Positions 1 to 57,167 of a stretch of 64,000 bases of DNA are shown here, piece by piece (the first letter of the stretch is position 1; each line of letters starts with the position of its first letter). A model generated the notes under the pieces. It did not search any database. It worked only from the letters and a program-made list of their open reading frames with translations, and had not been told where the DNA came from. This stretch comes from Naegleria gruberi. Taxonomy: Eukaryota. A program made the position numbers and the translations under genes. Where the stretch lies: the NCBI GenBank assembly GCA_000004985.1, contig GG738848.1; one strand, 5' to 3'.

Positions 1-704
1 ATCAATATTCGGATATTTTAATCACTTACTGGAACCCATTCATTGTGGAATTTGGAGAATTGATGTATGCTAGAAGAGATGGAGGTATCTACATTTCACA
101 ACTCCAACAATCCAATTCTAACAATTCCAACAAGAGCAATAATAGAAATCCAACCTTTTCACAACAAGAAATTTGCTCTCTCCAATATGGAACTGAAAAT
201 TTCATTGGACAAATATTGAGCTTAGATGAGGATAGATTCTTGGTGAGATCAATATGTAAGAATGAACTCGGCTACAGCATCTATATTCACATGTTCGACA
301 AGAGGAAGTTGTCATTGAATTCTTCTCCATTCCATAGCTGTCTAGTTTCTTACGATTTCGAAGAGAAACATCAACAACTCTTCAATCTTTCCACCATTAC
401 AGAAGAAGTCAATGTTAAAATGTTCATCCACAACTCTCGCTTCCTAATTTGTGGCGATTCAAAAGGATGGCTGAGAGTGTGGGATATCTACAAGGGAGGA
501 AAACCAATCTCTACGAAAAAGTTACAAGATTGTACCTGTTCAGAATTGGTATTCTTTTCTCCGTCTTGTTCTTTGGAACCAGCATCACATTCTTCATCAT
601 TAGGTTCGGATGGATACCTTCTCATGCCAATGGTGCATCATGTAAGGAATGGTGGCTACTTCTCTTCTACTAGTAGTACGTGTGTTGCAATTCCTCTGCA
701 CTAA
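1..704 (+). CDS. 5'-partial hypothetical protein with one WD-repeat-like motif. The gene probably starts upstream of the window.
   Basis: The frame of ORF 45..704 stays open back to position 3 with no stop. It contains GWLRVWD, which resembles the end of a WD repeat. No other conserved motif was found. Confidence 0.3.
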   Translation, partial: QYSDILITYWNPFIVEFGELMYARRDGGIYISQLQQSNSNNSNKSNNRNPTFSQQEICSLQYGTENFIGQILSLDEDRFLVRSICKNELGYSIYIHMFDKRKLSLNSSPFHSCLVSYDFEEKHQQLFNLSTITEEVNVKMFIHNSRFLICGDSKGWLRVWDIYKGGKPISTKKLQDCTCSELVFFSPSCSLEPASHSSSLGSDGYLLMPMVHHVRNGGYFSSTSSTCVAIPLH

Positions 705-41019: not shown

Positions 41020-42924
41020 CTATTCTCTTGTGTAACCATTAAGGAATTGAATGAGTTCTTGTTTCTCTTGAGAATATTTGATATCATCCCACTTCAAGTC
41101 ATCCTTCATAATGTCCAAAAGCTTTTCTGGTTCCAATGCAATTCTTAATGGATCATATTTGTACATTTGACATCTAATAGCTACATCCAATGCCTTGATA
41201 CAATTCTCGTGCTTCACCAAATATTTAATTTCACTCTCAATGAATGGCAAGTCTTCCCAAACTTGTTGGTGTCTAAATATTTGCTTATCAGCAACTTGTT
41301 TCACATCTTGTGATAGAACATCCAAGCATCTGTCACCATAGCTGAATTTCAAGTATCTGATAATATCATTAGGAAGGTAAGGATATTTAGACTTCATGGT
41401 TTGAGTCAAGAAGTGAACAAAGTTTTCAGAGCCATAAATTGGTTCAGTATTTTTCATTTCTTTCAAGTCTTTTCCGTAAATATATTTCAATACAGCATGT
41501 GATGAGTAATAATCCTTGGTTTTGTCGATGATTCTCAAAGCATTTTCATATTTCAAACTGATCAATTTGAGCTCATTATCAAATACAAATCTAGAAGAAC
41601 TATAAATATCATTTTTGGTAAAGTCACCTAATCTCAATATTCCCTTCAAGTTTTCCAATTGTTGAGCTGGCAGTGATAATAAGCTGTATCTGTAATGTGA
41701 AATAAATTTTCCATACTGAGTAATGATATTATAGTTGGAAAGCTGTGGAAGAGTGAACAGGTATTCTTCCTTGCATTTGTGTGGATTGAGCCTCTTGAGA
41801 AGTTGTTCATCCTCAGAAGTATTCTCGCAAAATATTACCTTCTTGTACTTGATGGAATATTCCTTTTCGTTTATAATCTTATCTGAAAATGTCAGCAATG
41901 ATTTATCCATATCCACAGATTTGACATTCACATGGTTCAGAGCAATATTTCCAGATGCTGCCGATGTAAGAGCCAAAGAGGAGATAAATCTAGATAAATT
42001 CAGAATACCACTATCATAGTATGTGATACATCTGAAAACATTTCTGGCATCCTTCAAATCTCTAAACAAGTCACTCTCATCCTTTGTTCTTTCTTGGAAC
42101 CTATTCCTCAAAACTCCCAATCTAGCTTCACAATAATTTCTATCATCCAAAATTGTATCCTCCATCCACAAATCCTTTCCATACACAAAATATTCATATC
42201 CCAATAATTTCCACATTTGCTTGTAATACTTGAACTTTTGTGAGTTTCTAAATATTTCTGAATTTCTGTATTCTCTCATTAGGTGAGGAGCTATAGAAAA
42301 CAAGTGATTTCTCTTCTCCAACTTGTCCTTCATTGAATTGTACAAATTTTCATAATGTTTACACTCGATAACATCATTTTCAAAACCTCCAGAGCACTTC
42401 ATCACTTGAGTTTGAAAAAAGTTTGGTAAAAGTCCCTTCAATTCATCACCCTCCAACACATTATGAAAAATCAAATTGGAATTCAATGCCAAATCGTCCC
42501 TCTGTGAAACAAAATCATTAGATGAGAGCAAACAAACTGAATATCCTCTCATCGATGCTTCATAAGCCAACGATGCACCAATCAAACCATCCCCAACAAT
42601 ACACAAATCAAAATCCTCATCCAAATTCTCTACAATTTTAAATTGTTCCTCTCGTGATGGTATTTTCCATATGGCTGTTCGGAATGGAAAGGTTGTATAG
42701 TCAGCACTTGGTAAATCATCAACAGAAAAAGCCTGAATCATCCAAGGCTTTGCTACTACTGCTTGATGTAAATCATCGATGACTTTTTGAATGGATTCAT
42801 GGCCGTATGAGTGAGAAAAGGCTTTTCCTATGAGAAATGTTCCTCCTCCGATCAAAAGACATTTTCCAAGTGTTTTTGATGAGAATGAAGGCTTGCTGAA
42901 AATCTTCCTTCCAAATCTGAACAT
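41020..42924 (-). CDS. Divergent FAD-dependent glycerol-3-phosphate dehydrogenase (GPD2)-like protein, probably catalytically degenerate
   Basis: Collinear matches to mitochondrial GPD2. The dinucleotide fold is DLCIVGDGLIGASLAYEASMRGYSVCLLSSNDF. Other matches are NHLFSIAPHL (vs LLEIAPHL), KYYKQMWKLLGYEY (vs YKWWQLPYYWVG) and ITYYDSGILNLSRFISSLALTSAASG (vs IVYYDGQHNDARMNLAIALTAA). The conserved HGG and HND residues are replaced. Confidence 0.5.
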   Translation of the reverse strand: MFRFGRKIFSKPSFSSKTLGKCLLIGGGTFLIGKAFSHSYGHESIQKVIDDLHQAVVAKPWMIQAFSVDDLPSADYTTFPFRTAIWKIPSREEQFKIVENLDEDFDLCIVGDGLIGASLAYEASMRGYSVCLLSSNDFVSQRDDLALNSNLIFHNVLEGDELKGLLPNFFQTQVMKCSGGFENDVIECKHYENLYNSMKDKLEKRNHLFSIAPHLMREYRNSEIFRNSQKFKYYKQMWKLLGYEYFVYGKDLWMEDTILDDRNYCEARLGVLRNRFQERTKDESDLFRDLKDARNVFRCITYYDSGILNLSRFISSLALTSAASGNIALNHVNVKSVDMDKSLLTFSDKIINEKEYSIKYKKVIFCENTSEDEQLLKRLNPHKCKEEYLFTLPQLSNYNIITQYGKFISHYRYSLLSLPAQQLENLKGILRLGDFTKNDIYSSSRFVFDNELKLISLKYENALRIIDKTKDYYSSHAVLKYIYGKDLKEMKNTEPIYGSENFVHFLTQTMKSKYPYLPNDIIRYLKFSYGDRCLDVLSQDVKQVADKQIFRHQQVWEDLPFIESEIKYLVKHENCIKALDVAIRCQMYKYDPLRIALEPEKLLDIMKDDLKWDDIKYSQEKQELIQFLNGYTRE

Positions 42925-47111: not shown

Positions 47112-48182
47112 ATGAAAAATATTGATAGTGATTGTATGGTATTTGTTTTGGAATTTATGAGTGTGGCGGATCATGTTTATCAATTATCGAGGGTGTGTTC
47201 CGATTGGAGAATAAATTCAATCAAGTTTATTGTGAGGTATTTGGACAAGAGGTATGCAATGTTGGGAGATTTAGTGAAACAATTCGAAACTTGTTTTGGG
47301 TGTTCAGTATCGGGAAGGAAAATGAGAAAGTTTCTGATGAGATGCCATGTCAGAGACTTGGCAGAATATTTACTTGATTCATATGAAGGAGTCCACGAAA
47401 ATCAACAGTTCACCATTCTTTGGGTTAAGAGTGAAATGGAAATTCTGTGTAATTACTTGAAAATTTCTAATAGGATGAAATCAGATGGCAACCAAACTAA
47501 ATCTACTGGGTTTTTCACAAAGATTGGAAAATTATTCTCTAAAAAAACACATGACAAGGCATCTATTCAATCACCCAACAAAGAGGTAGAATCTAATATG
47601 AAACAATTTGATTATATCAATGTGGAGTCTTCTATTCAGGGAAATTTGAATGATTTAGAACGATACTATCTTGTCAATGCTATTATGGGAATTGAGTTTA
47701 TACCAGAGTATGATGAGGAGGGAAACTTGGATGAGAGTGTATTTTCGAGAGCGTGTCTTTATGGAAGCACTGATATTGTGTTGGAATTGAAAGATTGGTT
47801 CAAGATTCATTTGAATATTAGATATCCTAAACTCACAAGTGACAATTTGGAACCTAAAAGTTTGCTATCTCACTCACACCTTCTAATGATATCAGGAATA
47901 TCAATGCAGACAAACAGAAATAACTTGGAATTAATTAAGGAGCTCGACTTGAATAAGAAACTATTTAAAGATGATTCATGTAAGGTTTCCAATTACGAGC
48001 AAGTGGTTGTTGGTGTCAAGGTTAGTGATCCTCTCTTAAACTCACAACAAATGATTCAAACAGCATTTAGTTTTGATGGATTGCAATATTTCGAGTTTAA
48101 CGTCAGCAATCCACATCAAATGAGAGTATTATATTGGTATTCAATATTAATGTCATTCATTCTAAGTTTTTTAAATAGTTAA
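47112..48182 (+). CDS. Hypothetical protein with an F-box-like N-terminus
   Basis: VFVLEFMSVADHVYQLSRVCSDWRINSIKFIVRYL is F-box-like. The remainder is unassigned. Confidence 0.35.
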   Translation: MKNIDSDCMVFVLEFMSVADHVYQLSRVCSDWRINSIKFIVRYLDKRYAMLGDLVKQFETCFGCSVSGRKMRKFLMRCHVRDLAEYLLDSYEGVHENQQFTILWVKSEMEILCNYLKISNRMKSDGNQTKSTGFFTKIGKLFSKKTHDKASIQSPNKEVESNMKQFDYINVESSIQGNLNDLERYYLVNAIMGIEFIPEYDEEGNLDESVFSRACLYGSTDIVLELKDWFKIHLNIRYPKLTSDNLEPKSLLSHSHLLMISGISMQTNRNNLELIKELDLNKKLFKDDSCKVSNYEQVVVGVKVSDPLLNSQQMIQTAFSFDGLQYFEFNVSNPHQMRVLYWYSILMSFILSFLNS

Positions 48183-48348
48183 TATTATTATTAATTATTA
48201 TTAAAGGGTCATTCTACAAGATTATCTGCACAGATAATTTCATCTTGGGGAAAAGTTTGGAAACTTCATCCACACATGCCAATTCGTTTTCTGTTAAATC
48301 CAATTGTGTTAAATTTGGTAATTTGCCAATAAATTCCAAATGTGCATC

Positions 48349-49185
48349 CTAAAAACCTTTAAAATAAAGTATTCCTATATTTTTACATACCTTAACCCTA
48401 CATTTTTTCAATTTTAAAAATTCCAGATTTGTCAATTTGCTTAAACATGTAGCTCCTGTAATGTGTAGGAATCCATTTTCTATTTCTAATCGTTTTAAAT
48501 TAATTAATTCAGAAATTGACATTAGTGCATGATCTCCAATACAATGATTTTCAATTATCAATGAAGTCAATTGTGTTATTTTTTTAAATTCTAAAAAAAT
48601 TGATTTTTTAGGATAAAATATTTCTCTGCCTGATGAATTGATAAAGCAAAGCTCCCTCAAATGGATTAATTTGCTTATTTGATCCAAATGATGGATCTCA
48701 ATATCGTGTACAATTAATTTTCTTAATTTGGGTAAAATTGCCAAATCATGTAAATCTTCCATAATGTAACTCAATTCCAATTCTTCCAAATTTATCAATT
48801 TTTGTAAAGGACTCAACGAAGAGGTAATTTTAGTAAATTTTAAATATTTCAAATTGACAAATTGTGAAATAATTTCCAAAATAAAACTACCATCACAAAT
48901 GAGATATTGTAAATTGATGAAAATTTCTACATGTTCTTGTTTTAGAAAATTGTAAATATTTCGGATGTGTAAATTGTGAGCATTCCGAAACTTTTTAAAA
49001 GCACTAGTAAAATAATTCCAAATATTTTCATCACGAATTAAACTTGTGCGAATGAGGGAAAGTTTAGTTGTGAATAAACATCGCAACCACTTTTCACAAA
49101 CCAAAGAACACACTTGAATTAGAAACTTTGGTTCATGAAATACAAAAATTTGATGAGAAATAATTTCATCCGGTAATTGTTCCAT
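48349..49185 (-). CDS. F-box-like / LRR protein
   Basis: The N-terminus LPDEIISHQIFVFHEPKFLIQVCSLVCEKWL is followed by LRR units (LEELELSYI, LRELCFINSSG, LKRLEIENGFL). Confidence 0.5.
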   Translation of the reverse strand: MEQLPDEIISHQIFVFHEPKFLIQVCSLVCEKWLRCLFTTKLSLIRTSLIRDENIWNYFTSAFKKFRNAHNLHIRNIYNFLKQEHVEIFINLQYLICDGSFILEIISQFVNLKYLKFTKITSSLSPLQKLINLEELELSYIMEDLHDLAILPKLRKLIVHDIEIHHLDQISKLIHLRELCFINSSGREIFYPKKSIFLEFKKITQLTSLIIENHCIGDHALMSISELINLKRLEIENGFLHITGATCLSKLTNLEFLKLKKCRVKVCKNIGILYFKGF

Positions 49186-49228
49186 TTTTTTTAATAAAAT
49201 TTAAAACAATTTTTTTTTCAATTTTTTA

Positions 49229-49273
49229 CATTTATAGTAAAAACAATGAGACAACAAGCTCGAAAACATTGAG
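49229..49273. repeat. Retroelement repeat B (terminal 3' copy)
   Basis: Identical 45 bp. AT-rich host-like DNA follows to the left of 49229. Confidence 0.8.
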
Positions 49274-49438
49274 TTTATTCTTCTACGCGTACACAAATTG
49301 CATACACTTTTATCCTCTTTTCATTCATTCAGCCATCCAGCCAGCTCAGTATTCATGGATATACTACTATATCATACTAAACTAACCTTAGACTGAATAA
49401 ACTCACATATTTGCAACTACTAGCAAAACAAACCAAAT

Positions 49439-49494
49439 AGATATTCCTATGAATATCTATTCGAACTTCAGTAGATATTCCATTGAATATCTAC
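49439..49494. repeat. Two adjacent perfect hairpin palindromes in the retroelement spacer
   Basis: The first is agatattc-ctat-gaatatct, with 8-bp arms. The second is gtagatattc-catt-gaatatctac, with 10-bp arms. The two share the same arm core and are separated by 12 nt. Confidence 0.7.
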
Positions 49495-49652
49495 TTAAAA
49501 AACCCTCATTGGGTATTGATCGTGACAAGGGCTATCCCGGTGTCAACATGTTAAATTATCGCCACCTTCCTGGCCGATCAAATGACACCGTCGTCTATTA
49601 AGCCAATATAATACTTACAGATATTTTCGATCTAGGGTGGGGTGGTGGGTCA

Positions 49653-49854
49653 TCTTAAGTATGTCAGTGATGGTTTCTTGAATTGTTGATTGACTCATAA
49701 TGTGTTGCAATTTTTTCAACTTGAGTTTTACTTTCCTTCAGTAAAACTCTCTATTTAACCTAAATTTTCATTGTAAAATTTAGGTTGACTACGTTACCTG
49801 GTTGTCTATTGTTTTTACAATATAAACTTACGTAAGGTGTGGACCTTACTACCA
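49653..49854. repeat. Retroelement repeat A (internal/3' copy)
   Basis: Identical to 53688..53889 by direct comparison. Confidence 0.85.
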
Positions 49855-49897
49855 TTTATAGTAAAAACAATGAGACAACAAGCTCGAAAACATTGAG
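49853..49897. repeat. Retroelement repeat B (internal copy), abutting repeat A
   Basis: catttatagtaaaaacaatgagacaacaagctcgaaaacattgag is identical to 49229..49273. It is followed by accttacta, which repeats the end of A. Confidence 0.8.
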
Positions 49898-49914
49898 ACC
49901 TTACTAGCATAAGT

Positions 49915-52900
49915 TTAGAAGCCCATCAAGTGTGAACCGTTTCTATCACCTCTAAAGTTAGCTCGAAAATATCTGTCTATAGCATCTGAATTCCAACCAC
50001 CCATGGCCTTGATGGTAGCATCAGGGATACCCATAATGGCAGCCTCCGTGGCTCCACCAATTCTCAACGAATGAGAAGAGTACTTTCCTGGATCAGCTTC
50101 GATCCATGTTGCAACCTGAGTTAAGATGTAAGAAATCTCAACTGTATTTAAAGAAAAACCACCGGTAAACAAAAACTTTCCTTTGTCTCTTGAATCAAGT
50201 AATTTTTGAAGCCATTTCATCGGACACAATTCAGAACCTGTCGCTTCGATACATGATTTTCTTCCTTTCTTATCATTCTTCACTTTTCTCACTGTTATAC
50301 TAAACCCCACCACCGGGAACTTCACAATCTTTAGATCCTCTATTAATAAACCACCCAATTCTGAACCCCTAAACATTGACCTTATACCAAAAATCATTAG
50401 GCACGTGTATAGAACATATGATTTTTCTTTAACAAACTGTCTACCAACAATTACCCATTTACAAATAAATTCTATTCTCCATGGATCTCTTTCTCTCTTT
50501 GTCGCCACTGTAGCCAGATTGCACATACCCTTTATCACCATCTGTACTCTAATGTTTACTGTAATATCCTCCCAACCAATCCTTTTACAAAAATGCTTAA
50601 TAGCATACATTGCACTTCGACAGTTATTACCAGATGGTGTTTTGATGAACATAAAGGTGAGAAATCTGACTACCATTTCACTAGTTGCTGGTGGAACCTC
50701 TTTTTGCTTAATAAGAAAGTTGATAAATCTATTCCAATAACTTTCATAGTTGTCTGTTGTGGATATTTCAATTGAACATGACATTAATGTATCTGCAATC
50801 TTACTCAAATCGTGACTCTGCAGTCTACTAATGTTGCTCTTATGGTCCAAAATCCTTTGCATGGTTCTAGGTTCCCTCCTTGGGAGGCTCTGAAATGATT
50901 TCCATCTAGATTCATAAAACGAATTTGATAACTTTCTATTATCTTCCACCACCACCTCTTTTTCCATACTGGATGAACCAATACCATAACTGCTTTGGAC
51001 TCTAGACAATGTTGTAATACTCTCCCTATTAGATTGAAAGGTACGCAGCACCAATTTACCACTGGCTCTGTCCAAAGGTGAGAGAATGAATCTGCTTTCT
51101 CTCTTCTGCTGGTCTTCTTTCTCACTGTATATGGTTTTGTCTTGAAGTTGTAATGAGAGGCGAATCTGTCCCATCCTATTGATACATCCAGCTGCTTCTC
51201 TACTAATTGAAAAGCTTCTTTGGTAATCTCCCAATCTGTTGGGTCTTTCTCTTGAATATTTCTGCTCAGATTGTCCGCTACTTGATTCTCCTCCGAAGGT
51301 AACCATTCTAACGAAAGCAAACGGATGTCGTGTTCGAAAATAATGCGCCATATTAGTTGAATCAATTGATTCATAATGGGAGACTTTGCTCTTCCCTTCA
51401 TTATACAATATAGAGCCACCTTTGAATCCGTGTAAACAATTAAATTCTTTCCTTTCAAAAGATGTGACCATTCTTTTAGGGCAAGATAGATCGCTCTCAC
51501 TTCTAATACATTGATATGTTCTTGGCATTGTTCTCCCTTCCAAAAACCTTGTAGTTTCAAATTTCTTTCTTTGTGGAAAACTCCCCATCCCAATCTCGAT
51601 GCATCTGTCCAAAAGTATTCCACTAAGCTTGGATATTGGAACACCTTTCCATTCCAATGGTCCAAGTTGTATAAAATCCATTGGAGATTGAAAATTACAT
51701 CTCGGTCTCTGATGCGAAATTCGGAATCCCAGCCTCCAATATTCACCTAGTCCACCACTAAAGAATAAATCGGATTCAACATCACCCTTGCAGGTTGGAA
51801 ACAGTCTACATAAGCAATTATAATACCAGTCATCCGAAACAGTTCTCTGGATGTTACTTTCTGATCTTGGTGATACTTGGCAAGGGCTATGGAAATACGA
51901 GTTCGAATTTTCTCTAATGTAGCTTCTGTCATAATTAATTTCCTGCTGACCAGATCTATCTTGATCCCAAGTAGTTGAAAGACTTTTAATGGAGTTAACT
52001 GACTCTTCTTCTTTTCGATAACTACACCTAATTCTGCACATACCATTGTAACGAATGTATTGTTCCTTAATGCAGATAAATAGGAACCAAAATGTAATAA
52101 ACCAACATCGTCTAAGTAATTGGATGGTGTTAAAGAATCTGATCTCAAAAAATTGATAAATACATTCATCATTTGTGTAAAAAAGTATGGAGATCCATTC
52201 CATCCAAATGGAAGGACTGTGAATTGCAAAACCTCTTCCTCTACTTGAATGGCAAAGTATGGTCTGTCCTTCCTTTTTACCTTCATCTGGTGATATCCGG
52301 ATTTCATATCGAACATAGAACCCCAAATTTGATCTGTCTTGTTCATTGGTACGTGTTCTAAAAACTTCTTCAACGTGTTGTACTTGAATTTGGGGATAGA
52401 ACAAAACCGATTGAGCGGTCTTAAATCGATAATCAGTCGGTATGATTCTTTCTTTGGGACCAGCCGATACTTGGCTATCACTTTTGGATTGTGACAAGGT
52501 TCCAAAGCTCCAATCTCTTTCAAAATACTCACTTCTCTTTTTAACCATTCTCTCTCTTCCAAAGACCATTCTTCTAAATTTACCTTTCCATAGTATGGAA
52601 CAAATTCTTCGTTTGTTTGAACTGATACACCCTCTTTCAACATATCCACTATTTCCATTGAAGCTCCTTTCTTCCTCCAGGTATCCCATTTGTTCGAAAT
52701 GGAATGAATAGCCTCTCTTCTTTCTTCTACCTCTCGGAAAAAACAAATCATCTACATACTCTGAACCCTCTCTTTTATTTCTCTTAGGGCAATCTTTGAT
52801 CAGATGGTTTGGGTCATTACAAATAAAGCATTTCTTCACTTTCTTCATACCATTAGCACTACCAAACATATTCACCTTTTCCTCTGCCTTATCTTTCTTA

Positions 52901-53754
52901 TCATAAATCTTGGCATTTGCATAGGATTTAACAAAACTTGTCTTACCCTTCTCCTTATGGTCGAACTTGAGTAGTTTTTCTGCCATCTTAAGCTTATCCA
53001 TGTTCTCACGCCATAATGGATTGCTTTCTATAAACGCCAATTTAGATGCTAATTCTGGATTGACGGCTTGAACTTGTAATTGGAAAGCTCTTGTCTCTAA
53101 GTTCGCAACCATTTTCTTCGTATCATCTATTTCTGGGAAAAGATTAGCTATCTTCATTGTAAAAGCAGAATCCTTTCTCAAATTCTCATATTCTGTAAGA
53201 AGACTAGAATTAGTTGTTGGCAATGGTGTGTAGATTGTATCTGTGTATTTTCTAACTTCAGATTCAGCTGCCAATTGTTGTAAAACACGTTCTGTTTCAG
53301 CTTTTTCCAGCTTCATCTGTGCAATCTTAGCATCGATTATTTGTTCATAAGCCTTAAATCTCTTCACATCTTCTTCTGATACCTCTTCTCTCTTTCTCTT
53401 GTTAGAGCCATCTTCAACTTCTACAACTGACTCACCATCGTCCTCTTCGTCATCATCATCGTCATCATCATCTCTTGCTTCCTTGAATGCATGTTTAATC
53501 TCATCCTTTAACTTCTCTACATCTTTACTCTTGCCACTTGTGCAAACCGTAAACTTGTCTGCACCAATAAAGTCAACAATTGCCTTTGCCAATACCTTCT
53601 TTTGGCCAGAAACTTCAATTTCCAAGGTACCTATAATCTTTTGTATCAAGGCCTTTGTTAACTTTCCAACAGCACTTTTATCATGCTTCTTAAGTATGTC
53701 AGTGATGGTTTCTTGAATTGTTGATTGACTCATAATGTGTTGCAATTTTTTCAA
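49915..53754 (-). CDS. Retroelement long ORF (1279 aa): gag (N-terminal ~335 aa) ... overprinted linker ... tyrosine recombinase (C-terminal ~300-400 aa)
   Basis: One continuous frame. The N-terminus MSQSTIQETITDILKKH has a poly-Asp tract and a CCHC knuckle. The C-terminus has the tyrosine-recombinase R..HxxR..Y motifs. The central ~600 codons overlap the RT/RNase H frame and show no domain of their own. Confidence 0.75.
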   Translation of the reverse strand: MKKLQHIMSQSTIQETITDILKKHDKSAVGKLTKALIQKIIGTLEIEVSGQKKVLAKAIVDFIGADKFTVCTSGKSKDVEKLKDEIKHAFKEARDDDDDDDDEEDDGESVVEVEDGSNKRKREEVSEEDVKRFKAYEQIIDAKIAQMKLEKAETERVLQQLAAESEVRKYTDTIYTPLPTTNSSLLTEYENLRKDSAFTMKIANLFPEIDDTKKMVANLETRAFQLQVQAVNPELASKLAFIESNPLWRENMDKLKMAEKLLKFDHKEKGKTSFVKSYANAKIYDKKDKAEEKVNMFGSANGMKKVKKCFICNDPNHLIKDCPKRNKREGSEYVDDLFFPRGRRKKRGYSFHFEQMGYLEEERSFNGNSGYVERGCISSNKRRICSILWKGKFRRMVFGRERMVKKRSEYFERDWSFGTLSQSKSDSQVSAGPKERIIPTDYRFKTAQSVLFYPQIQVQHVEEVFRTRTNEQDRSNLGFYVRYEIRISPDEGKKEGQTILCHSSRGRGFAIHSPSIWMEWISILFYTNDECIYQFFEIRFFNTIQLLRRCWFITFWFLFICIKEQYIRYNGMCRIRCSYRKEEESVNSIKSLSTTWDQDRSGQQEINYDRSYIRENSNSYFHSPCQVSPRSESNIQRTVSDDWYYNCLCRLFPTCKGDVESDLFFSGGLGEYWRLGFRISHQRPRCNFQSPMDFIQLGPLEWKGVPISKLSGILLDRCIEIGMGSFPQRKKFETTRFLEGRTMPRTYQCIRSESDLSCPKRMVTSFERKEFNCLHGFKGGSILYNEGKSKVSHYESIDSTNMAHYFRTRHPFAFVRMVTFGGESSSGQSEQKYSRERPNRLGDYQRSFSISREAAGCINRMGQIRLSLQLQDKTIYSEKEDQQKRESRFILSPLDRASGKLVLRTFQSNRESITTLSRVQSSYGIGSSSMEKEVVVEDNRKLSNSFYESRWKSFQSLPRREPRTMQRILDHKSNISRLQSHDLSKIADTLMSCSIEISTTDNYESYWNRFINFLIKQKEVPPATSEMVVRFLTFMFIKTPSGNNCRSAMYAIKHFCKRIGWEDITVNIRVQMVIKGMCNLATVATKRERDPWRIEFICKWVIVGRQFVKEKSYVLYTCLMIFGIRSMFRGSELGGLLIEDLKIVKFPVVGFSITVRKVKNDKKGRKSCIEATGSELCPMKWLQKLLDSRDKGKFLFTGGFSLNTVEISYILTQVATWIEADPGKYSSHSLRIGGATEAAIMGIPDATIKAMGGWNSDAIDRYFRANFRGDRNGSHLMGF
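50805..51746 (-). CDS. Retroelement RNase H (+ downstream domain) ORF, same frame as RT, separated from it by one TAG
   Basis: FWTDASRLGWGVF...LEVRAIYLALKEW...LIVYTDSKVALYCI are RNase H motifs. There is no ATG; it is listed with a GTG start. Confidence 0.75.
   Translation of the reverse strand: MNIGGWDSEFRIRDRDVIFNLQWILYNLDHWNGKVFQYPSLVEYFWTDASRLGWGVFHKERNLKLQGFWKGEQCQEHINVLEVRAIYLALKEWSHLLKGKNLIVYTDSKVALYCIMKGRAKSPIMNQLIQLIWRIIFEHDIRLLSLEWLPSEENQVADNLSRNIQEKDPTDWEITKEAFQLVEKQLDVSIGWDRFASHYNFKTKPYTVRKKTSRREKADSFSHLWTEPVVNWCCVPFNLIGRVLQHCLESKAVMVLVHPVWKKRWWWKIIESYQIRFMNLDGNHFRASQGGNLEPCKGFWTIRATLVDCRVTI
51747..52751 (-). CDS. Retroelement reverse transcriptase ORF, in the +1 frame relative to gag
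   Basis: LIIDLRPLNRF, KSGYHQMKV, LPFGWNGSPYFF and YLDDVGLL are RT motifs 1-5. The ORF ends with TAG at 51747..51749. Confidence 0.8.
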   Translation of the reverse strand: MICFFREVEERREAIHSISNKWDTWRKKGASMEIVDMLKEGVSVQTNEEFVPYYGKVNLEEWSLEEREWLKREVSILKEIGALEPCHNPKVIAKYRLVPKKESYRLIIDLRPLNRFCSIPKFKYNTLKKFLEHVPMNKTDQIWGSMFDMKSGYHQMKVKRKDRPYFAIQVEEEVLQFTVLPFGWNGSPYFFTQMMNVFINFLRSDSLTPSNYLDDVGLLHFGSYLSALRNNTFVTMVCAELGVVIEKKKSQLTPLKVFQLLGIKIDLVSRKLIMTEATLEKIRTRISIALAKYHQDQKVTSRELFRMTGIIIAYVDCFQPARVMLNPIYSLVVD

Positions 53755-53889
53755 CTTGAGTTTTACTTTCCTTCAGTAAAACTCTCTATTTAACCTAAAT
53801 TTTCATTGTAAAATTTAGGTTGACTACGTTACCTGGTTGTCTATTGTTTTTACAATATAAACTTACGTAAGGTGTGGACCTTACTACCA
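53688..53889. repeat. Retroelement terminal repeat A (5' copy). It contains the gag ATG.
   Basis: The 202 bp are identical to 49653..49854. The copy begins tcttaagtatgtcagtgatgg and ends ggaccttactacca. Confidence 0.85.
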
Positions 53890-53940
53890 ATTATTTAGAA
53901 TTTACAAATATAGATAATAATATACAAATAATCGGCAAGA

Positions 53941-55639
53941 TTACTTTTGAGAAACCATATTCTTTGCAATGAGGAGGGATACATTCTTTGCTGAGATTAG
54001 GTTAGTTTCCATAGTACTGACAACACTTTCAACACTATTCGTATAGTAAATATTATTGTGGAGTTTGACAGGAGGTTGAATATTATTTGGTTTGAGAATT
54101 GGATAACTTCCATGTTTCCAAACTTGTTGAACTACTGATGTGGCTCCAACAAACATTTCCTGTAATGTTTTGGTTGAAAGTGGCTCATGACTATACGATT
54201 CGAATATTCTTTCTGATTCATCAGGTGTCTTTCCAATAGGTGCAATATTATTGAGTGGTAGATATTTGGTCAAAAGTGGTTTCATTGTTGTAATATACAC
54301 ATCTGATTCAGAGCAATCAGTTCCAAAATAATTCTTGTTCAAGTCCTTTGCACGAATAATGCTAGTAATCAGAATATTCATATCACGTTTTTGTAAGGCA
54401 GATGGAGGAAGTTTGATATTTTCAAATTTGATATTTGTAAACTCGAGTGGAGTTGCAACAATTACATAATCAAATTGACCGAGTTCAGAATTGTTTCCAC
54501 TCTTGAGAGAATACTTGTTTGATGCTGGATCGAATGAAATTTCAGAAACTTCACTATTCAACTTTAAGGTCAATCGATCTTTTGGAATTGATTCAATGCA
54601 ACCAAGTGGAACTTTTGAGGTTCCTTCAAGAACATGTCTAAAATCAGAAACTGCTCCAGCTAATCCAATAATTCCTCCATAGGCACTGATTTGATCAGAG
54701 TTTTGCATATAATTGATTCTCAAAATTGGATCACAATATTCCTTGATAAAACGTTCTTGAATCCAATTATTTCTTGCATATTCATAGAAAGTCAATTTGG
54801 TCAAATCACTCATTCCAGTATCTTGACAAAAATCTTCAGTACTTTCCCATGTATAGACCTTACTCAATGTTTCTGCATTTAATGGACCAGTCGATGGCAA
54901 TTCTTGGAGTTTGTAAATATTTAAAAATCTCTCCTTTGACAAGTAGTAATTAACACTTCTCTTCAATAAGAAGAGAGGAATACCAAAATCATATCTCCAT
55001 GCTCCTCTAATTGCAGTCTTCCACCAACTGTCAGATTCACAAAATACCATTCTCTTTTCGTCACCATTAAATATACCAATTCTGACATTAAAATGAGGTT
55101 CTTCCAATGTCAAATTAAACTTTTCAATCAAGCCCAAAATGTACTTGTTTTCCAAAATGACAGATGATCCACCCACTTCATATGAATACTTTGAATTTTG
55201 TCAATTAATTTTGATTCTGAAACATTAATTATAATAAACAAACCTTGTATGGATCCTTCTCATCCTGATACAAGACCATTTCCTTCAAACGACCTCCAAC
55301 TCGATCATCCCTCTCATAAACCACCAATTCAATTTCTCTCTTCATTTCTTGAGAATTGGAATTTGGCTCTGGTGAAGAAGAAGAGGAATCATTTTCTCTT
55401 CTATTCATCTCATCAACCAATTCGGAGAGAAAGTAGGCAGAGCCAGAACCAGAAATTCCACTGCCAATAATTGCAACTCTCTTATTGATCATTGAATTAT
55501 TAGCAACCTTTGGTGTTTCAGCTTGAATGGTTGTTGTAGGAAGGATCATGGAGTTTTTAGTGTGAGAAAAGTAGTTAGATCCGATCAAGCCAACTGAACC
55601 AACAGACAAAGTGGCAGCAACTAGACGTTTTAAAGACAT
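53941..55639 (-). CDS. Prenylcysteine oxidase (PCYOX1-like FAD flavoprotein), 2 exons, with a signal peptide
   Basis: Exons are about 55229..55639 and 53941..55187, with a phase-0 junction ...DEKDPYK|YSYEVGGSSVIL. Collinear with PCYOX1. The FAD motif is VAIIGSGISGSGSAYFL, followed by ELVVYERDDRVGGRL. Further matches are YEVGGS, DPILRINYMQNSDQISAYGGIIGLAGA and YVIVATPLEF. Confidence 0.8.
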
Positions 55640-55689
55640 TTTTTTTGATTGTAAAATGTCAAACCAATATGAGAATCTATTTGCAGCTT

Positions 55690-56816
55690 TGAGTTTCCAT
55701 AACTTTCAATCTGCTTGCTGTATCTTTAATTTATTTTCATGATTTTCTTCATATTCAAATATTCTTTGTAAATAGTAGAATATGTAAATATCTGAATGAA
55801 TACTTCCTGGAGGTAGTTCAACACCAGTGTATGTTCTTCCAATAGTGACATAGCCTTGCATTCCTTCATCGTAAATGTGGAATGAATCGTTTCTTCATGC
55901 CTGGAATTTTAAAATCCAAAACACAGCTGGAGAATATGCAAGATCAGTTTGAACAGCAGCTTCATCATGTTGATTAAGCTTAGATGGATTATTTTTAAAT
56001 AATCTAATTGAGTAATGTCATAAATATTTCTAACAGGATCATTAACAGATATTGCATGTCTGAGACATTTCCAGGATTCTTCTAGTGGATGTTGAAATGT
56101 AGTTACAACTTTGTACAAGTGCATGCCCTCGTGCTTTTGATCTTCATCAAACACATATTGAGTTTTGAAAGATTTCCAACTTTTTCGATAATGGAGAGGA
56201 AGAGGTTCTAAATTTCTACAGGATGAGGTTTGTTGATCATTATTTTGATGCAACAATTATAACCTTTAAAGCCGAATATTAAAACAAGATACTGAGTCTT
56301 CCATAACACTGATTGCAAAGTAAATCTCTCGATCCTCAATTGTTTTTCTGGTCAACTCTTTTGGTTTGAATCTAAAATCCACATAAAACCTTTGGAAATG
56401 TCAATCGCAATTGAACGAGTAAATAATTCGCCTTGTTTTTCGAGAAATTCTACAATCATAGAACTTCTAGCAAATCTCAAAAACTGATCGCTCATCAAAT
56501 CCAAAGAGACTGAGAAAATTACATCTTTGAACAATTCATCAAGATCCAATTTGTACTTGTTGCCATAGTGTTAGAACTTTTGACTTTGTGACAATTCCTA
56601 AATTTAGTTCATTCACACTGCCTGTTTTGATGAAGGTGTTAATCAGTTTGCTGCACTGATGGTTCATGTTTGACTGGTTGATACAATTTTCTGAACTCAT
56701 CAATTTCGTTAAGGAAAAGAATGGTTTCTTCACTATGTGCAACTTGTTTCTCAAACATCATCAATTTGCACACCTGCCGTGCATCTCTATTCTTCATCAA
56801 GTTTAAATTTCTCCTC
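55690..56816 (-). pseudogene. RGS-domain gene disrupted by multiple frameshifts
   Basis: The RGS box is readable only by changing frame twice. Frame 1 reads MMFEKQVAHSEETILFLNEIDEFRKL then a stop. Frame 2 reads CSKLINTFIKTGSVNELNLGIVTKS then a stop. Frame 3 reads LDELFKDVIFSVSLDLMSDQFLRFARSS. The frame changes fall within about 30 nt, which is too short for introns. Further downstream, fragments are scattered over 3 more broken frames. Confidence 0.5.
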
Positions 56817-57167
56817 ATTTTTCAAATTAGCAAACAGGCCATTCAATGTTAAAACGATGCCTATTTTAACGAACCTATCAACTATTAGATATGGTTTTAT
56901 TAAGCAAAACTACATTGTAACAAACTTTGAAATGACGCTGGGTAGCTTTCTCTTTTTATACAACAACAACTCATTGGATAGAGCAAATCCCACTTCTAGG
57001 CACAGCCAGCAATAAATGGCATCTAAGGAAAGCAAATTCTGAATCACTAGTGTTCTTTATAAATCCATATTGAAAGCCTGAAGCAAAGCAAAGCCTCAAC
57101 ATAGTGCTTTAGGGAGATGGTTTTCGTCGGGTTGACCCAAAATTGGCTTATTTCAAATAAAAATTGT

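What the first reader, a model, noticed from the sequence alone, without database searches (positions are those of the whole stretch)
51740..51756. Single in-frame TAG separates the RT and RNase H domains of an otherwise pristine element
RT (ending ...NPIYSLVVD) and RNase H (starting VNIGGWDSEF...TDASRLGWG) are in the same frame, interrupted only by the TAG at 51749..51747. The terminal repeats are identical and all other motifs are intact. So this is either a very recent nonsense mutation, making the copy non-autonomous, or programmed stop-codon readthrough in pol.
Basis: seen in the sequence. Interest (0 to 1): 0.55.

Follow-up and report, generated by a model that had tools for sequence, protein, structure and literature searches.

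The report
Nonsense-mutated Naegleria tyrosine-recombinase retrotransposon copy
The in-frame TAG is real, but it is most likely an ordinary, recent knock-out mutation in one copy of a DIRS/PAT-type retrotransposon of Naegleria gruberi, because every related element that could be examined has a normal amino-acid codon at that spot and nothing around the TAG resembles a readthrough signal.

Summary
The window is Naegleria gruberi NEG-M. The element (minus strand, about 53889 to 49229, 4.66 kb) is a tyrosine-recombinase retrotransposon with split direct repeats, so it is PAT-like and not an LTR element.

TAG at 51749-51747 is the only in-frame stop in a 648-codon pol frame. It lies between the RT part (334 codons) and the RNase H/methyltransferase-like part (313 codons). 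The repeat pairs are identical (202 nt and 45 nt).

The readthrough interpretation is not supported:
- All five related lineages recovered have a sense codon at the site (ATG in three, TTG in one family of three sequences, ATG in N. lovaniensis).
- The N. lovaniensis element is full length, has the same architecture, and has an uninterrupted 676-codon pol.
- The 3' context (UAG GUG AAU) matches no known readthrough motif.
- Downstream RNA folding is no better than shuffled sequence, and there is no Rfam hit.
- TAG terminates an annotated host gene in the same window.

The region downstream of the TAG shows no extra amino-acid divergence, so the stop is young.

Best reading: a private nonsense substitution, possibly TTG to TAG (one of eight possible one-step routes), that makes this copy non-autonomous. 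A base-call error remains a minor alternative. No second N. gruberi copy could be reached with these tools. Interest is low.

The parts
51747..51749 (-). In-frame TAG, the only stop inside the pol frame. It aligns with ATG (Met) or TTG (Leu) in relatives.
51750..52751 (-). pol part 1: ORF from ATG 52751, 334 codons. Reverse transcriptase (RVT_1 at about 52460-51957, YLDD present) plus the conserved segment ...CFQPARVMLNPIYSLV.
   Evidence: RVT_1 E=4.8e-18
50805..51746 (-). pol part 2, same frame, 313 codons plus TGA. RNase H (about 51608-51261) and a methyltransferase-like C-terminal domain (about 51245-50808; the motif is CVPF at 51047-51036 where more distant relatives have NPPW).
   Evidence: (hhalign probability 98.3%, E=1.3e-14 to the C-terminal domain of other DIRS-type pols, where P0007 matches Pfam Dam)
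49915..53754 (-). Frame-0 ORF, 1279 codons from TTG 53754 or 1272 from ATG 53733, ending at TAA 49915-49917. It holds gag (zinc knuckle 52830-52789), then a stop-free stretch that overlaps all of pol, then the tyrosine recombinase (Phage_integrase about 50421-49969). pol lies in its +1 frame.
53688..53889 (-). A1, the 5' terminal repeat (202 nt, identical to A2). It contains the gag ATG at 53733.
49853..49897 (-). B1, internal copy of the 3' terminal repeat (45 nt). It overlaps A2 by the dinucleotide TG (49854-49853). B1 followed by A2 is the internal image of the joined element ends.
49653..49854 (-). A2, internal copy of the 5' terminal repeat (202 nt).
49274..49652 (-). Unique non-coding spacer X between A2 and B2. 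It contains a pair of 22-25 nt palindromic repeats at 49435-49496.
   Evidence: The N. lovaniensis relative has an equivalent spacer of about 500 nt.
49229..49273 (-). [quoted passage not shown]

Best explanation
The TAG is a loss-of-function nonsense substitution carried by this one copy, or its very recent lineage, of a PAT-like (DIRS-order) tyrosine-recombinase retrotransposon of Naegleria gruberi.

The ancestral codon encoded a hydrophobic residue, Met or Leu. One possible last step is TTG to TAG, a single T-to-A change that is silent (CTT to CTA, Leu) in the overlapping gag-recombinase frame. The one-step precursor cannot be determined; any of eight sense codons would do.

Translation of pol therefore stops after residue 334. 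The product is an RT without its RNase H and methyltransferase-like domains. The next in-frame Met lies beyond the first two RNase H catalytic residues, so the downstream part cannot be made separately. The copy is predicted to be non-autonomous. It could move only with pol supplied in trans, or through background misreading of the stop.

Shown: the stop itself, its uniqueness within pol, sense codons in all relatives, absence of readthrough signals, and absence of decay downstream.

Inferred: the ancestral codon and the loss of autonomy. It is also unresolved whether the change arose as a reverse-transcription error in the cycle that made this copy, after insertion, or in a parent that was mobilised in trans.
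For: 1. Five related lineages all have a sense codon at the aligned position: L001 ATG, L002/L003/P0032 TTG, L086 (P0081) ATG, N. lovaniensis L087 ATG.
2. L087 has the same architecture: split repeats of 187 and 44 nt, gag-to-recombinase as one 1332-codon ORF, and pol in the +1 frame. Its pol is 676 codons with no interruption.
3. In the list of the 150 best of 21,045 pol homologues, about 140 match P0005 as one stretch that runs from the RT through the RNase H across the junction. This is read from the coordinates listed; the alignments were not inspected.
4. The flanking residues (CFQPA.V.LNPIYS / GGWD) are conserved, so the TAG sits inside a conserved segment and not in a dispensable linker.
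5. Amino-acid changes unique to this element are no more frequent downstream of the TAG (26/187) than upstream (33/191), so the downstream domains have not been drifting.
6. Both repeat pairs are identical, which is consistent with a young copy.
7. About 6.1% of all single-base changes in pol create a stop (355/5823), so one hit is unremarkable.
8. TAG is a working terminator in this genome. The annotated protein XP_002682073.1 ends at TAG 41020-41022.
9. [quoted passage not shown]
Against: No second N. gruberi copy of this family could be examined. It is therefore not shown that a sense codon exists in this species, nor that the TAG is absent from a parent copy.

A copy that is otherwise perfect (all frames open, repeats identical) is also what one would expect if the stop were tolerated.

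The nearest relatives are only about 60% identical in protein. A lineage-specific recoding event that arose after their divergence is not formally excluded.

Using repeat identity as a clock assumes that both copies of each repeat are templated from one source at transposition. That assumption was not tested.
Confidence: 0.8

Rival explanations
1. Base-call or assembly error: the real NEG-M sequence has a sense codon (for example TTG), and the copy is fully intact and autonomous.
For: The element is otherwise flawless: one stop in 648 codons, no frameshift against the intact N. lovaniensis relative, and identical repeats. A single wrong base would account for everything.
Against: The TAG is not in a homopolymer or low-complexity run. 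The flanking host ORFs in the window match the annotated proteins exactly, so there is no sign of local sequence problems. Substitution errors at assembled consensus depth are rare (general knowledge, not tested here).
Confidence: 0.1
2. Programmed stop-codon readthrough: a fraction of ribosomes decode the UAG. The element would then make both an RT-only product and a full RT-RNase H-methyltransferase-like product, loosely like the p51/p66 pair of HIV-1 RT.
For: The stop is in frame and is the only defect. The copy looks young and intact. The base after the stop is G, as in MuLV (MuLV context as described in PMC2194720).
Against: The stop is absent from all five related lineages, including the intact N. 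lovaniensis element. The 3' hexamer GUGAAU is not CAR-YYA, and the base after the stop is not C (signals as summarised in PMC2194720). The 70 and 120 nt downstream fold no better than shuffles (z -0.71 and -0.61). There is no Rfam recoding element. [quoted passage not shown]
Confidence: 0.04
3. The TAG is removed or bypassed at the RNA level. This could be a tiny intron (GTGGTGGACTAG, 12 nt, starting GT and ending AG, a multiple of three), or RNase H/MT could be translated separately by reinitiation at the adjacent GTG.
For: The 12 nt ending in the TAG start with GT, end with AG and keep the frame. A GTG follows the stop directly.
Against: Relatives have three or four residues aligned to this stretch (SRM, SRL, IFKM), so it is coding and not an intron. 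12 nt is far below any known spliceosomal intron length (general knowledge). A spliced retroelement RNA would lose the segment in its progeny. Termination-reinitiation at GTG has no support in eukaryotic retroelements (general knowledge).
Confidence: 0.01

Closest known systems
Pat1-like (PAT) elements of the DIRS order, 'echinoderm form' (e.g. SpPat1), as defined in PMC4157794
   Same: It has split direct repeats in the order A1 ... B1A2 ... B2. It has a gag with a CCHC zinc knuckle, RT/RNase H followed by a methyltransferase-like domain, and a forward-oriented tyrosine recombinase. The internal repeat pair lies downstream of the recombinase.
   Different: A 379-nt unique spacer separates A2 from B2. 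gag and the recombinase share one uninterrupted reading frame that overlaps all of pol. The methyltransferase motif reads CVPF instead of NPPW. The host is a heterolobosean. Phylogenetic placement within PAT was not tested.
DIRS-1 of Dictyostelium discoideum and DIRS1-like elements (PMC3266345, PMC7192593)
   Same: It has the same domain set (gag, RT, RNase H, methyltransferase-like, tyrosine recombinase). It has a long overlap between the recombinase ORF and pol, with the catalytic recombinase domain in the non-overlapping 3' end. An internal sequence mirrors the joined termini. DIRS-1 proteins can act in trans.
   Different: DIRS1-like elements have inverted terminal repeats plus internal complementary regions. 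This element has direct split repeats and no terminal inverted repeats.
N. lovaniensis element at PYSW02000016.1 (locus L087; gene model P0034)
   Same: Its architecture is the same feature for feature: repeat layout, a single gag-to-recombinase ORF, pol in the +1 frame, a U6 run at the gag/pol boundary, and the CVPF motif. Protein identity is 44-45% in pol.
   Different: Its pol is uninterrupted (676 codons) and has ATG where the N. gruberi copy has TAG.
MuLV-type gag-pol UAG readthrough (as summarised in PMC2194720)
   Same: It is an in-frame UAG inside a retroelement coding region, followed by G.
   Different: The MuLV signal sits at the gag-pol boundary, is conserved, and needs an 8-nt purine-rich spacer plus a pseudoknot. 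Here the stop is inside pol, is not conserved in relatives, and is followed by no significant structure.

Membership tests
DIRS order (tyrosine-recombinase retrotransposons) | RT and RNase H of the LTR-retrotransposon type | tested here: met
   RVT_1 E=4.8e-18. RNase H-like models score about 3e-5.
DIRS order (tyrosine-recombinase retrotransposons) | A tyrosine recombinase instead of a DDE integrase | tested here: met
   Phage_integrase E=2.4e-6, 27.8 bits against a cut-off of 27.1, for the C-terminal 304 residues. The RGSEL, HSLRIGG and RYF motifs are read in the sequence. No integrase hit.
PAT / Pat1-like | Split direct repeats A1-B1-A2-B2 with A1=A2 and B1=B2 | tested here: met
   A 202/202 nt and B 45/45 nt, in the order A1 ... 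B1A2 ... B2. A 379-nt spacer between A2 and B2 is an addition to the textbook scheme.
PAT / Pat1-like | Methyltransferase domain downstream of RNase H (this separates DIRS/PAT from Ngaro and VIPER) | tested here: inconclusive
   There is no direct Pfam hit and only weak pairwise similarity (E=0.38). The profile-profile match to the C-terminal domain of other DIRS-type pols is strong (98.3%, E=1.3e-14), and one of those (P0007) matches Pfam Dam above its cut-off. The NPPW-type motif reads CVPF here and in the close relatives.
PAT / Pat1-like | Zinc finger in gag (Pat1-like as opposed to Toc or kangaroo) | tested here: met
   CFICNDPNHLIKDC has the pattern CX2CX4HX4C. Pfam zf-CCHC scores E=7e-4, 20.0 bits, just under the 20.8 cut-off.
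PAT / Pat1-like | Phylogenetic placement of RT and recombinase within the PAT clade | not tested
DIRS1-like | Inverted terminal repeats with internal complementary regions | tested here: not met
   The repeat search on 48000-57000 found only direct terminal repeats. The only inverted pairs are a hairpin inside repeat A and a chance-level 71% match.
Programmed stop-codon readthrough site | Stop codon conserved at the same position in related elements | tested here: not met
   0 of 5 related lineages have a stop; they have ATG, TTG, ATG and ATG. About 140 of the 150 best homologues listed match across the junction as one stretch, read from the coordinates and not from alignments.
Programmed stop-codon readthrough site | Readthrough-promoting 3' context (CAR-YYA, or C after the stop) | tested here: not met
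   The context is UAG GUG AAU. The motifs are as listed in PMC2194720.
Programmed stop-codon readthrough site | Stimulatory RNA structure or pseudoknot a few nucleotides downstream | tested here: inconclusive
   Minimum-free-energy folds of +1..70 and +1..120 are not better than shuffles (z -0.71 and -0.61), and there is no Rfam hit. Pseudoknots are not predicted by the tool used.
Programmed stop-codon readthrough site | Measured readthrough product | not testable with these tools
   This needs a reporter assay, ribosome profiling or proteomics.

The most novel reading that the evidence does not exclude
The UAG is deliberately leaky in this N. gruberi lineage. Most ribosomes would stop and make an RT-only protein, and a minority would read through to make RT-RNase H-methyltransferase-like protein. 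That would set a fixed ratio of two RT isoforms by recoding inside pol, where retroviruses achieve a comparable p51/p66 ratio by proteolysis. It would be the first readthrough site inside a retroelement pol, and the first recoding event described in Naegleria.
Probability: 0.03. Interest if true: 0.6.

Novelty: new member of a known kind. Interest (0 to 1): 0.15.

Why it matters
The stop codon matters little. It marks one retrotransposon copy as probably dead or dependent on a helper, which is routine for transposable elements.

The useful by-product is a clean anatomical description of a Naegleria tyrosine-recombinase retrotransposon family. An earlier survey could only call such elements 'uncertain' in N. 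gruberi, because the copies it saw were degraded (PMC3266345).

The family shows split direct repeats. It also shows a complete nesting of pol inside a single gag-to-recombinase reading frame, conserved between two Naegleria species. That is a good system for asking how such overlapping frames are translated.

Tried and rejected
1. Search for a second N. gruberi copy. The exact sequences of the element's ORFs are not in the protein collection. The RT-RH query found no protein above 60% identity. The recombinase query found no N. gruberi protein. There is no other copy in the 64-kb window.
2. A protein search with the whole 1272-residue frame-0 ORF returned nothing, probably because low-complexity words filled the candidate list. 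It was repeated with the recombinase part only.
3. The metagenome scan with the family alignment returned 80 loci of 22-45% identity. Of the 11 whose match spanned the junction, apart from L001-L003, most carry a Ty3/gypsy-like tether motif. They were useless for the codon, and the scan did not return L001 among the 80 loci it kept.
4. Two viral-contig scans found nothing.
5. Rfam found no match in the element.
6. TAG reassignment or pyrrolysine-type decoding was rejected. TAG ends the annotated host protein XP_002682073.1 in this window.
7. The 12-nt intron idea (GTGGTGGACTAG) was rejected. The stretch aligns to coding residues in relatives and is far too short.
8. P0081 starts exactly at the Met aligned with the TAG, which briefly suggested a split ORF in a relative. 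Its gene starts 5 nt from the contig end, so this is an edge effect.
9. L084 and L085 (N. lovaniensis and a metagenome) are 5'-truncated copies that lack the junction.

Full report
**Source and setting.** Four long host ORFs of the window are identical to annotated proteins of Naegleria gruberi strain NEG-M (XP_002682077.1, XP_002682074.1, XP_002681926.1, XP_002682073.1). The window is therefore N. gruberi nuclear DNA. The feature lies in an insertion of about 4.66 kb on the minus strand. On one side is the stop of a prenylcysteine-lyase-like ORF (53941). On the other is the ATG of an F-box/LRR ORF (49185).

**Observation.** Read on the minus strand, 51785-51690 is AAT CCG ATT TAT TCT TTA GTG GTG GAC TAG GTG AAT ATT GGA GGC TGG GAT TCC GAA TTT. 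This translates to NPIYSLVVD*VNIGGWDSEF.
- The ORF upstream (52751-51750, 334 codons, ATG start) matches Pfam RVT_1 with E=4.8e-18.
- The ORF downstream in the same frame (51746-50808, 313 codons) matches three RNase H-like models at about 3e-5.
- The TAG is the only stop in the 648-codon pol frame.

**What the element is.** It is not an LTR element. A second frame (frame 0) is open for 1279 codons, from 53754 to 49915.
- Its start carries a gag with a CX2CX4HX4C knuckle (52830-52789).
- Its end carries a tyrosine recombinase (Phage_integrase E=2.4e-6; RGSEL, HSLRIGG and RYF motifs).
- pol lies in the +1 frame relative to it.

The repeats are split direct repeats. A1 (53889-53688) is identical to A2 (49854-49653) over 202 nt. 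B1 (49897-49853) is identical to B2 (49273-49229) over 45 nt. B1 and A2 abut and overlap by TG. A 379-nt unique spacer separates A2 from B2. No terminal inverted repeats were found.

The C-terminal 146 residues of pol have no direct Pfam hit. As a three-sequence profile, however, they match the C-terminal domain of other DIRS-type pols (hhalign 98.3%, E=1.3e-14). One of those pols, P0007, matches Pfam Dam above its cut-off.

By the structural criteria of PMC4157794 the layout is that of a Pat1-like PAT element of the 'echinoderm form'. The criteria are split direct repeats, a methyltransferase-like domain, a gag zinc finger, a forward recombinase, and an internal repeat downstream of the recombinase. 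Phylogenetic membership was not tested.

DIRS-like sequences have been reported before in Naegleria. In N. gruberi there were 7 copies in 6 families, at most 2 per family, and they were considered too degraded to classify (PMC3266345). In N. lovaniensis there were 89 RepeatMasker hits (PMC6125883).

**The codon in relatives.** No second N. gruberi copy could be reached. Five related lineages were recovered.

| Lineage | Source | Sequence at the site | Codon |
|---|---|---|---|
| This element | N. gruberi | NPIYSLVVD*VNIGGWD | TAG |
| L001 (P0005, 60% identity) | JGI metagenome | NPIYSLVSRMVNTGGWD | ATG |
| L002/L003 and cluster-mate P0032 (58%) | ENA metagenomes | LVHSLISRLVVSGGWD | TTG |
| L086 (P0081) | metagenome | begins MINIGGWD, 5 nt from the contig end | ATG |
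| L087 (gene model P0034) | N. lovaniensis PYSW02000016.1 | NPIYSRIFKMVEDGWD | ATG |

L087 is the most informative. It has the same repeat layout: A of 187 nt, B of 44 nt, and a spacer of about 500 nt. Its gag-to-recombinase ORF is a single 1332 codons. Its pol lies in the +1 frame and is 676 codons long without any interruption.

In the list of the 150 best of 21,045 homologues of the pol protein, about 140 match as one stretch that runs across the RT-RNase H junction (coordinates; alignments not inspected). The residues on both sides of the TAG are conserved. The intact state of this family is therefore a continuous RT-RNase H-MT-like protein with Met or Leu at this position.

**Readthrough signals.** The known signals, summarised in PMC2194720, are:
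- CAR-YYA after the stop;
- C directly after the stop;
- the MuLV arrangement of an 8-nt purine-rich spacer plus a pseudoknot.

Here the context is UAG GUG AAU AUU. The 70 and 120 nt after the stop fold no better than dinucleotide shuffles (z -0.71 and -0.61). Rfam finds nothing in the element. TAG is an ordinary terminator in this genome, since the annotated glycerol-3-phosphate dehydrogenase-like protein ends at TAG 41020-41022. Pseudoknots were not assessed.

**Age of the stop.** With L001 and L002 as comparators, residues unique to the N. gruberi element number 33 of 191 in the RT part and 26 of 187 in the RNase H/MT part. The domains downstream of the stop have therefore not been drifting. 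Both repeat pairs are identical, and there are no frameshifts relative to L087. This fits a young copy with one recent hit. It assumes, as for LTRs, that both copies of each repeat come from one template at transposition.

About 6.1% of all possible single-base changes in pol create a stop (355 of 5823), so a single nonsense hit is not surprising. TTG to TAG, one of eight possible one-step routes, is silent in the overlapping frame (CTT to CTA). That is true of 49 of the 355 stop-creating changes, so it carries no weight.

**Mechanistic consequence (inferred).** Translation of pol ends after residue 334. The RNase H and MT-like domains are not made, because the next in-frame Met lies beyond the first two RNase H catalytic residues. 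The copy should be non-autonomous. DIRS-1 proteins can act in trans (PMC7192593). The stop could therefore have arisen in any of three ways, and these cannot be separated here:
- as an RT error in the cycle that produced this copy;
- after insertion;
- in a defective parent that was mobilised by a helper.

A base-call error is a minor alternative. The site is not low-complexity, and neighbouring host ORFs match their annotations exactly.

**Verdict.** The finding is ordinary.

**Side observations.**
- In both Naegleria elements the whole of pol is nested in the +1 frame of one gag-to-recombinase ORF.
- The overlapping frame has 0 stops where synonymous-codon permutation of pol predicts 39.2 +/- 4.1 in N. 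gruberi and 40.7 +/- 4.4 in N. lovaniensis. The minimum over the permutations was 26 and 27.
- The metagenomic relatives keep that frame open too, although its protein identity is only about 32% against about 60% for pol.
- A run G UUU UUU CC(G/A) AGA at the gag/pol boundary is shared by the two Naegleria elements.
- In L001 the pol frame has no ATG between the preceding stop and the conserved AIHSISN motif.

Together the last two points suggest, without proving, that pol is entered by +1 frameshifting on a U run.

Noticed in passing
window 53754-49915 (minus); L087 7905-11900: gag and the tyrosine recombinase lie in one uninterrupted frame (1279 codons here, 1332 in N. lovaniensis). That frame overlaps the entire pol ORF, which sits in its +1 frame. 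Across the overlap the frame has 0 stops, against about 39-41 expected from synonymous-codon permutation of pol (minimum 26-27). The metagenomic relatives L001-L003 also keep it open, although its protein identity is only about 32%. Long ORF overlap is known for DIRS1-like elements (PMC3266345). Complete nesting of pol, with gag and the recombinase in a single frame, seems worth a remark.
   Followed up: partly
window 52744-52732 (minus); L087 9035-9047; L001 about 800-830: At the gag/pol boundary both Naegleria elements share G UUU UUU CC(G/A) AGA, 10-14 codons upstream of the conserved pol motif AIHSISNKW. In L001 the pol frame has no ATG between the preceding stop and that motif, and has a U4 run instead. 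This suggests that pol is entered by +1 frameshifting of tRNA-Phe on a U run. It is speculation and was not tested. In the N. gruberi copy the pol frame opens as TAG|ATG at 52754-52749.
   Followed up: partly
window 49652-49274: A 379-nt unique, GC-richer, non-coding spacer lies between A2 and B2. It contains two 22-25 nt near-palindromic repeats (49435-49459 and 49472-49496). The N. lovaniensis element has an equivalent spacer of about 500 nt with two 81-nt direct repeats (L087 12225-12305 and 12361-12441). Its function is unknown.
   Followed up: no
window 49910-49842 and element ends 53889 / 49229: B1 is flanked on both sides by the 14-nt motif ATG(C/G)TAGTAAGGTC. B and A overlap by TG at the internal junction, and both element ends carry that TG (flank ...AATAATT|TGGTAG... 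and ...ATAAATG|TAAAAAATTG). No target-site duplication is present. This is consistent with recombinase-mediated insertion of a circle at a very short identity.
   Followed up: no
window 51047-51036 (minus): In the methyltransferase-like domain, the position where more distant DIRS-type pols have NPPW reads CVPF (NWCCVPFNL). The same is seen in L001, L002 and N. lovaniensis L087. The domain may be catalytically inactive throughout this Naegleria-type clade.
   Followed up: no
L001 about 1075-1118 and about 2690; L002 about 2070 and about 3205: The metagenomic relatives each show two one-base frame swaps relative to the Naegleria elements. Because both overlapping frames are open, each swap yields long chimeric ORFs: gag fused to RT in P0005, and RT-RH fused to the recombinase frame in P0006 and P0032. 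Whether these are real mutations or assembly errors is unknown.
   Followed up: partly
L002 2-1705, L003 3-1571, L085 688-1908: Two different 5'-truncated relatives lie directly downstream of protein-kinase-like ORFs in metagenome contigs. L084 (N. lovaniensis PYSW02000001.1) is another 5'-truncated copy, holding only the end of pol and the recombinase.
   Followed up: no
window 49185-49273 and 53889-53941: The element sits in a short intergenic space. Its 3' end (B2) is 43 nt upstream of the ATG of an F-box/LRR ORF. Its 5' end is 51 nt downstream of the stop of a prenylcysteine-lyase-like ORF. It may therefore affect the promoter of the downstream gene.
   Followed up: no
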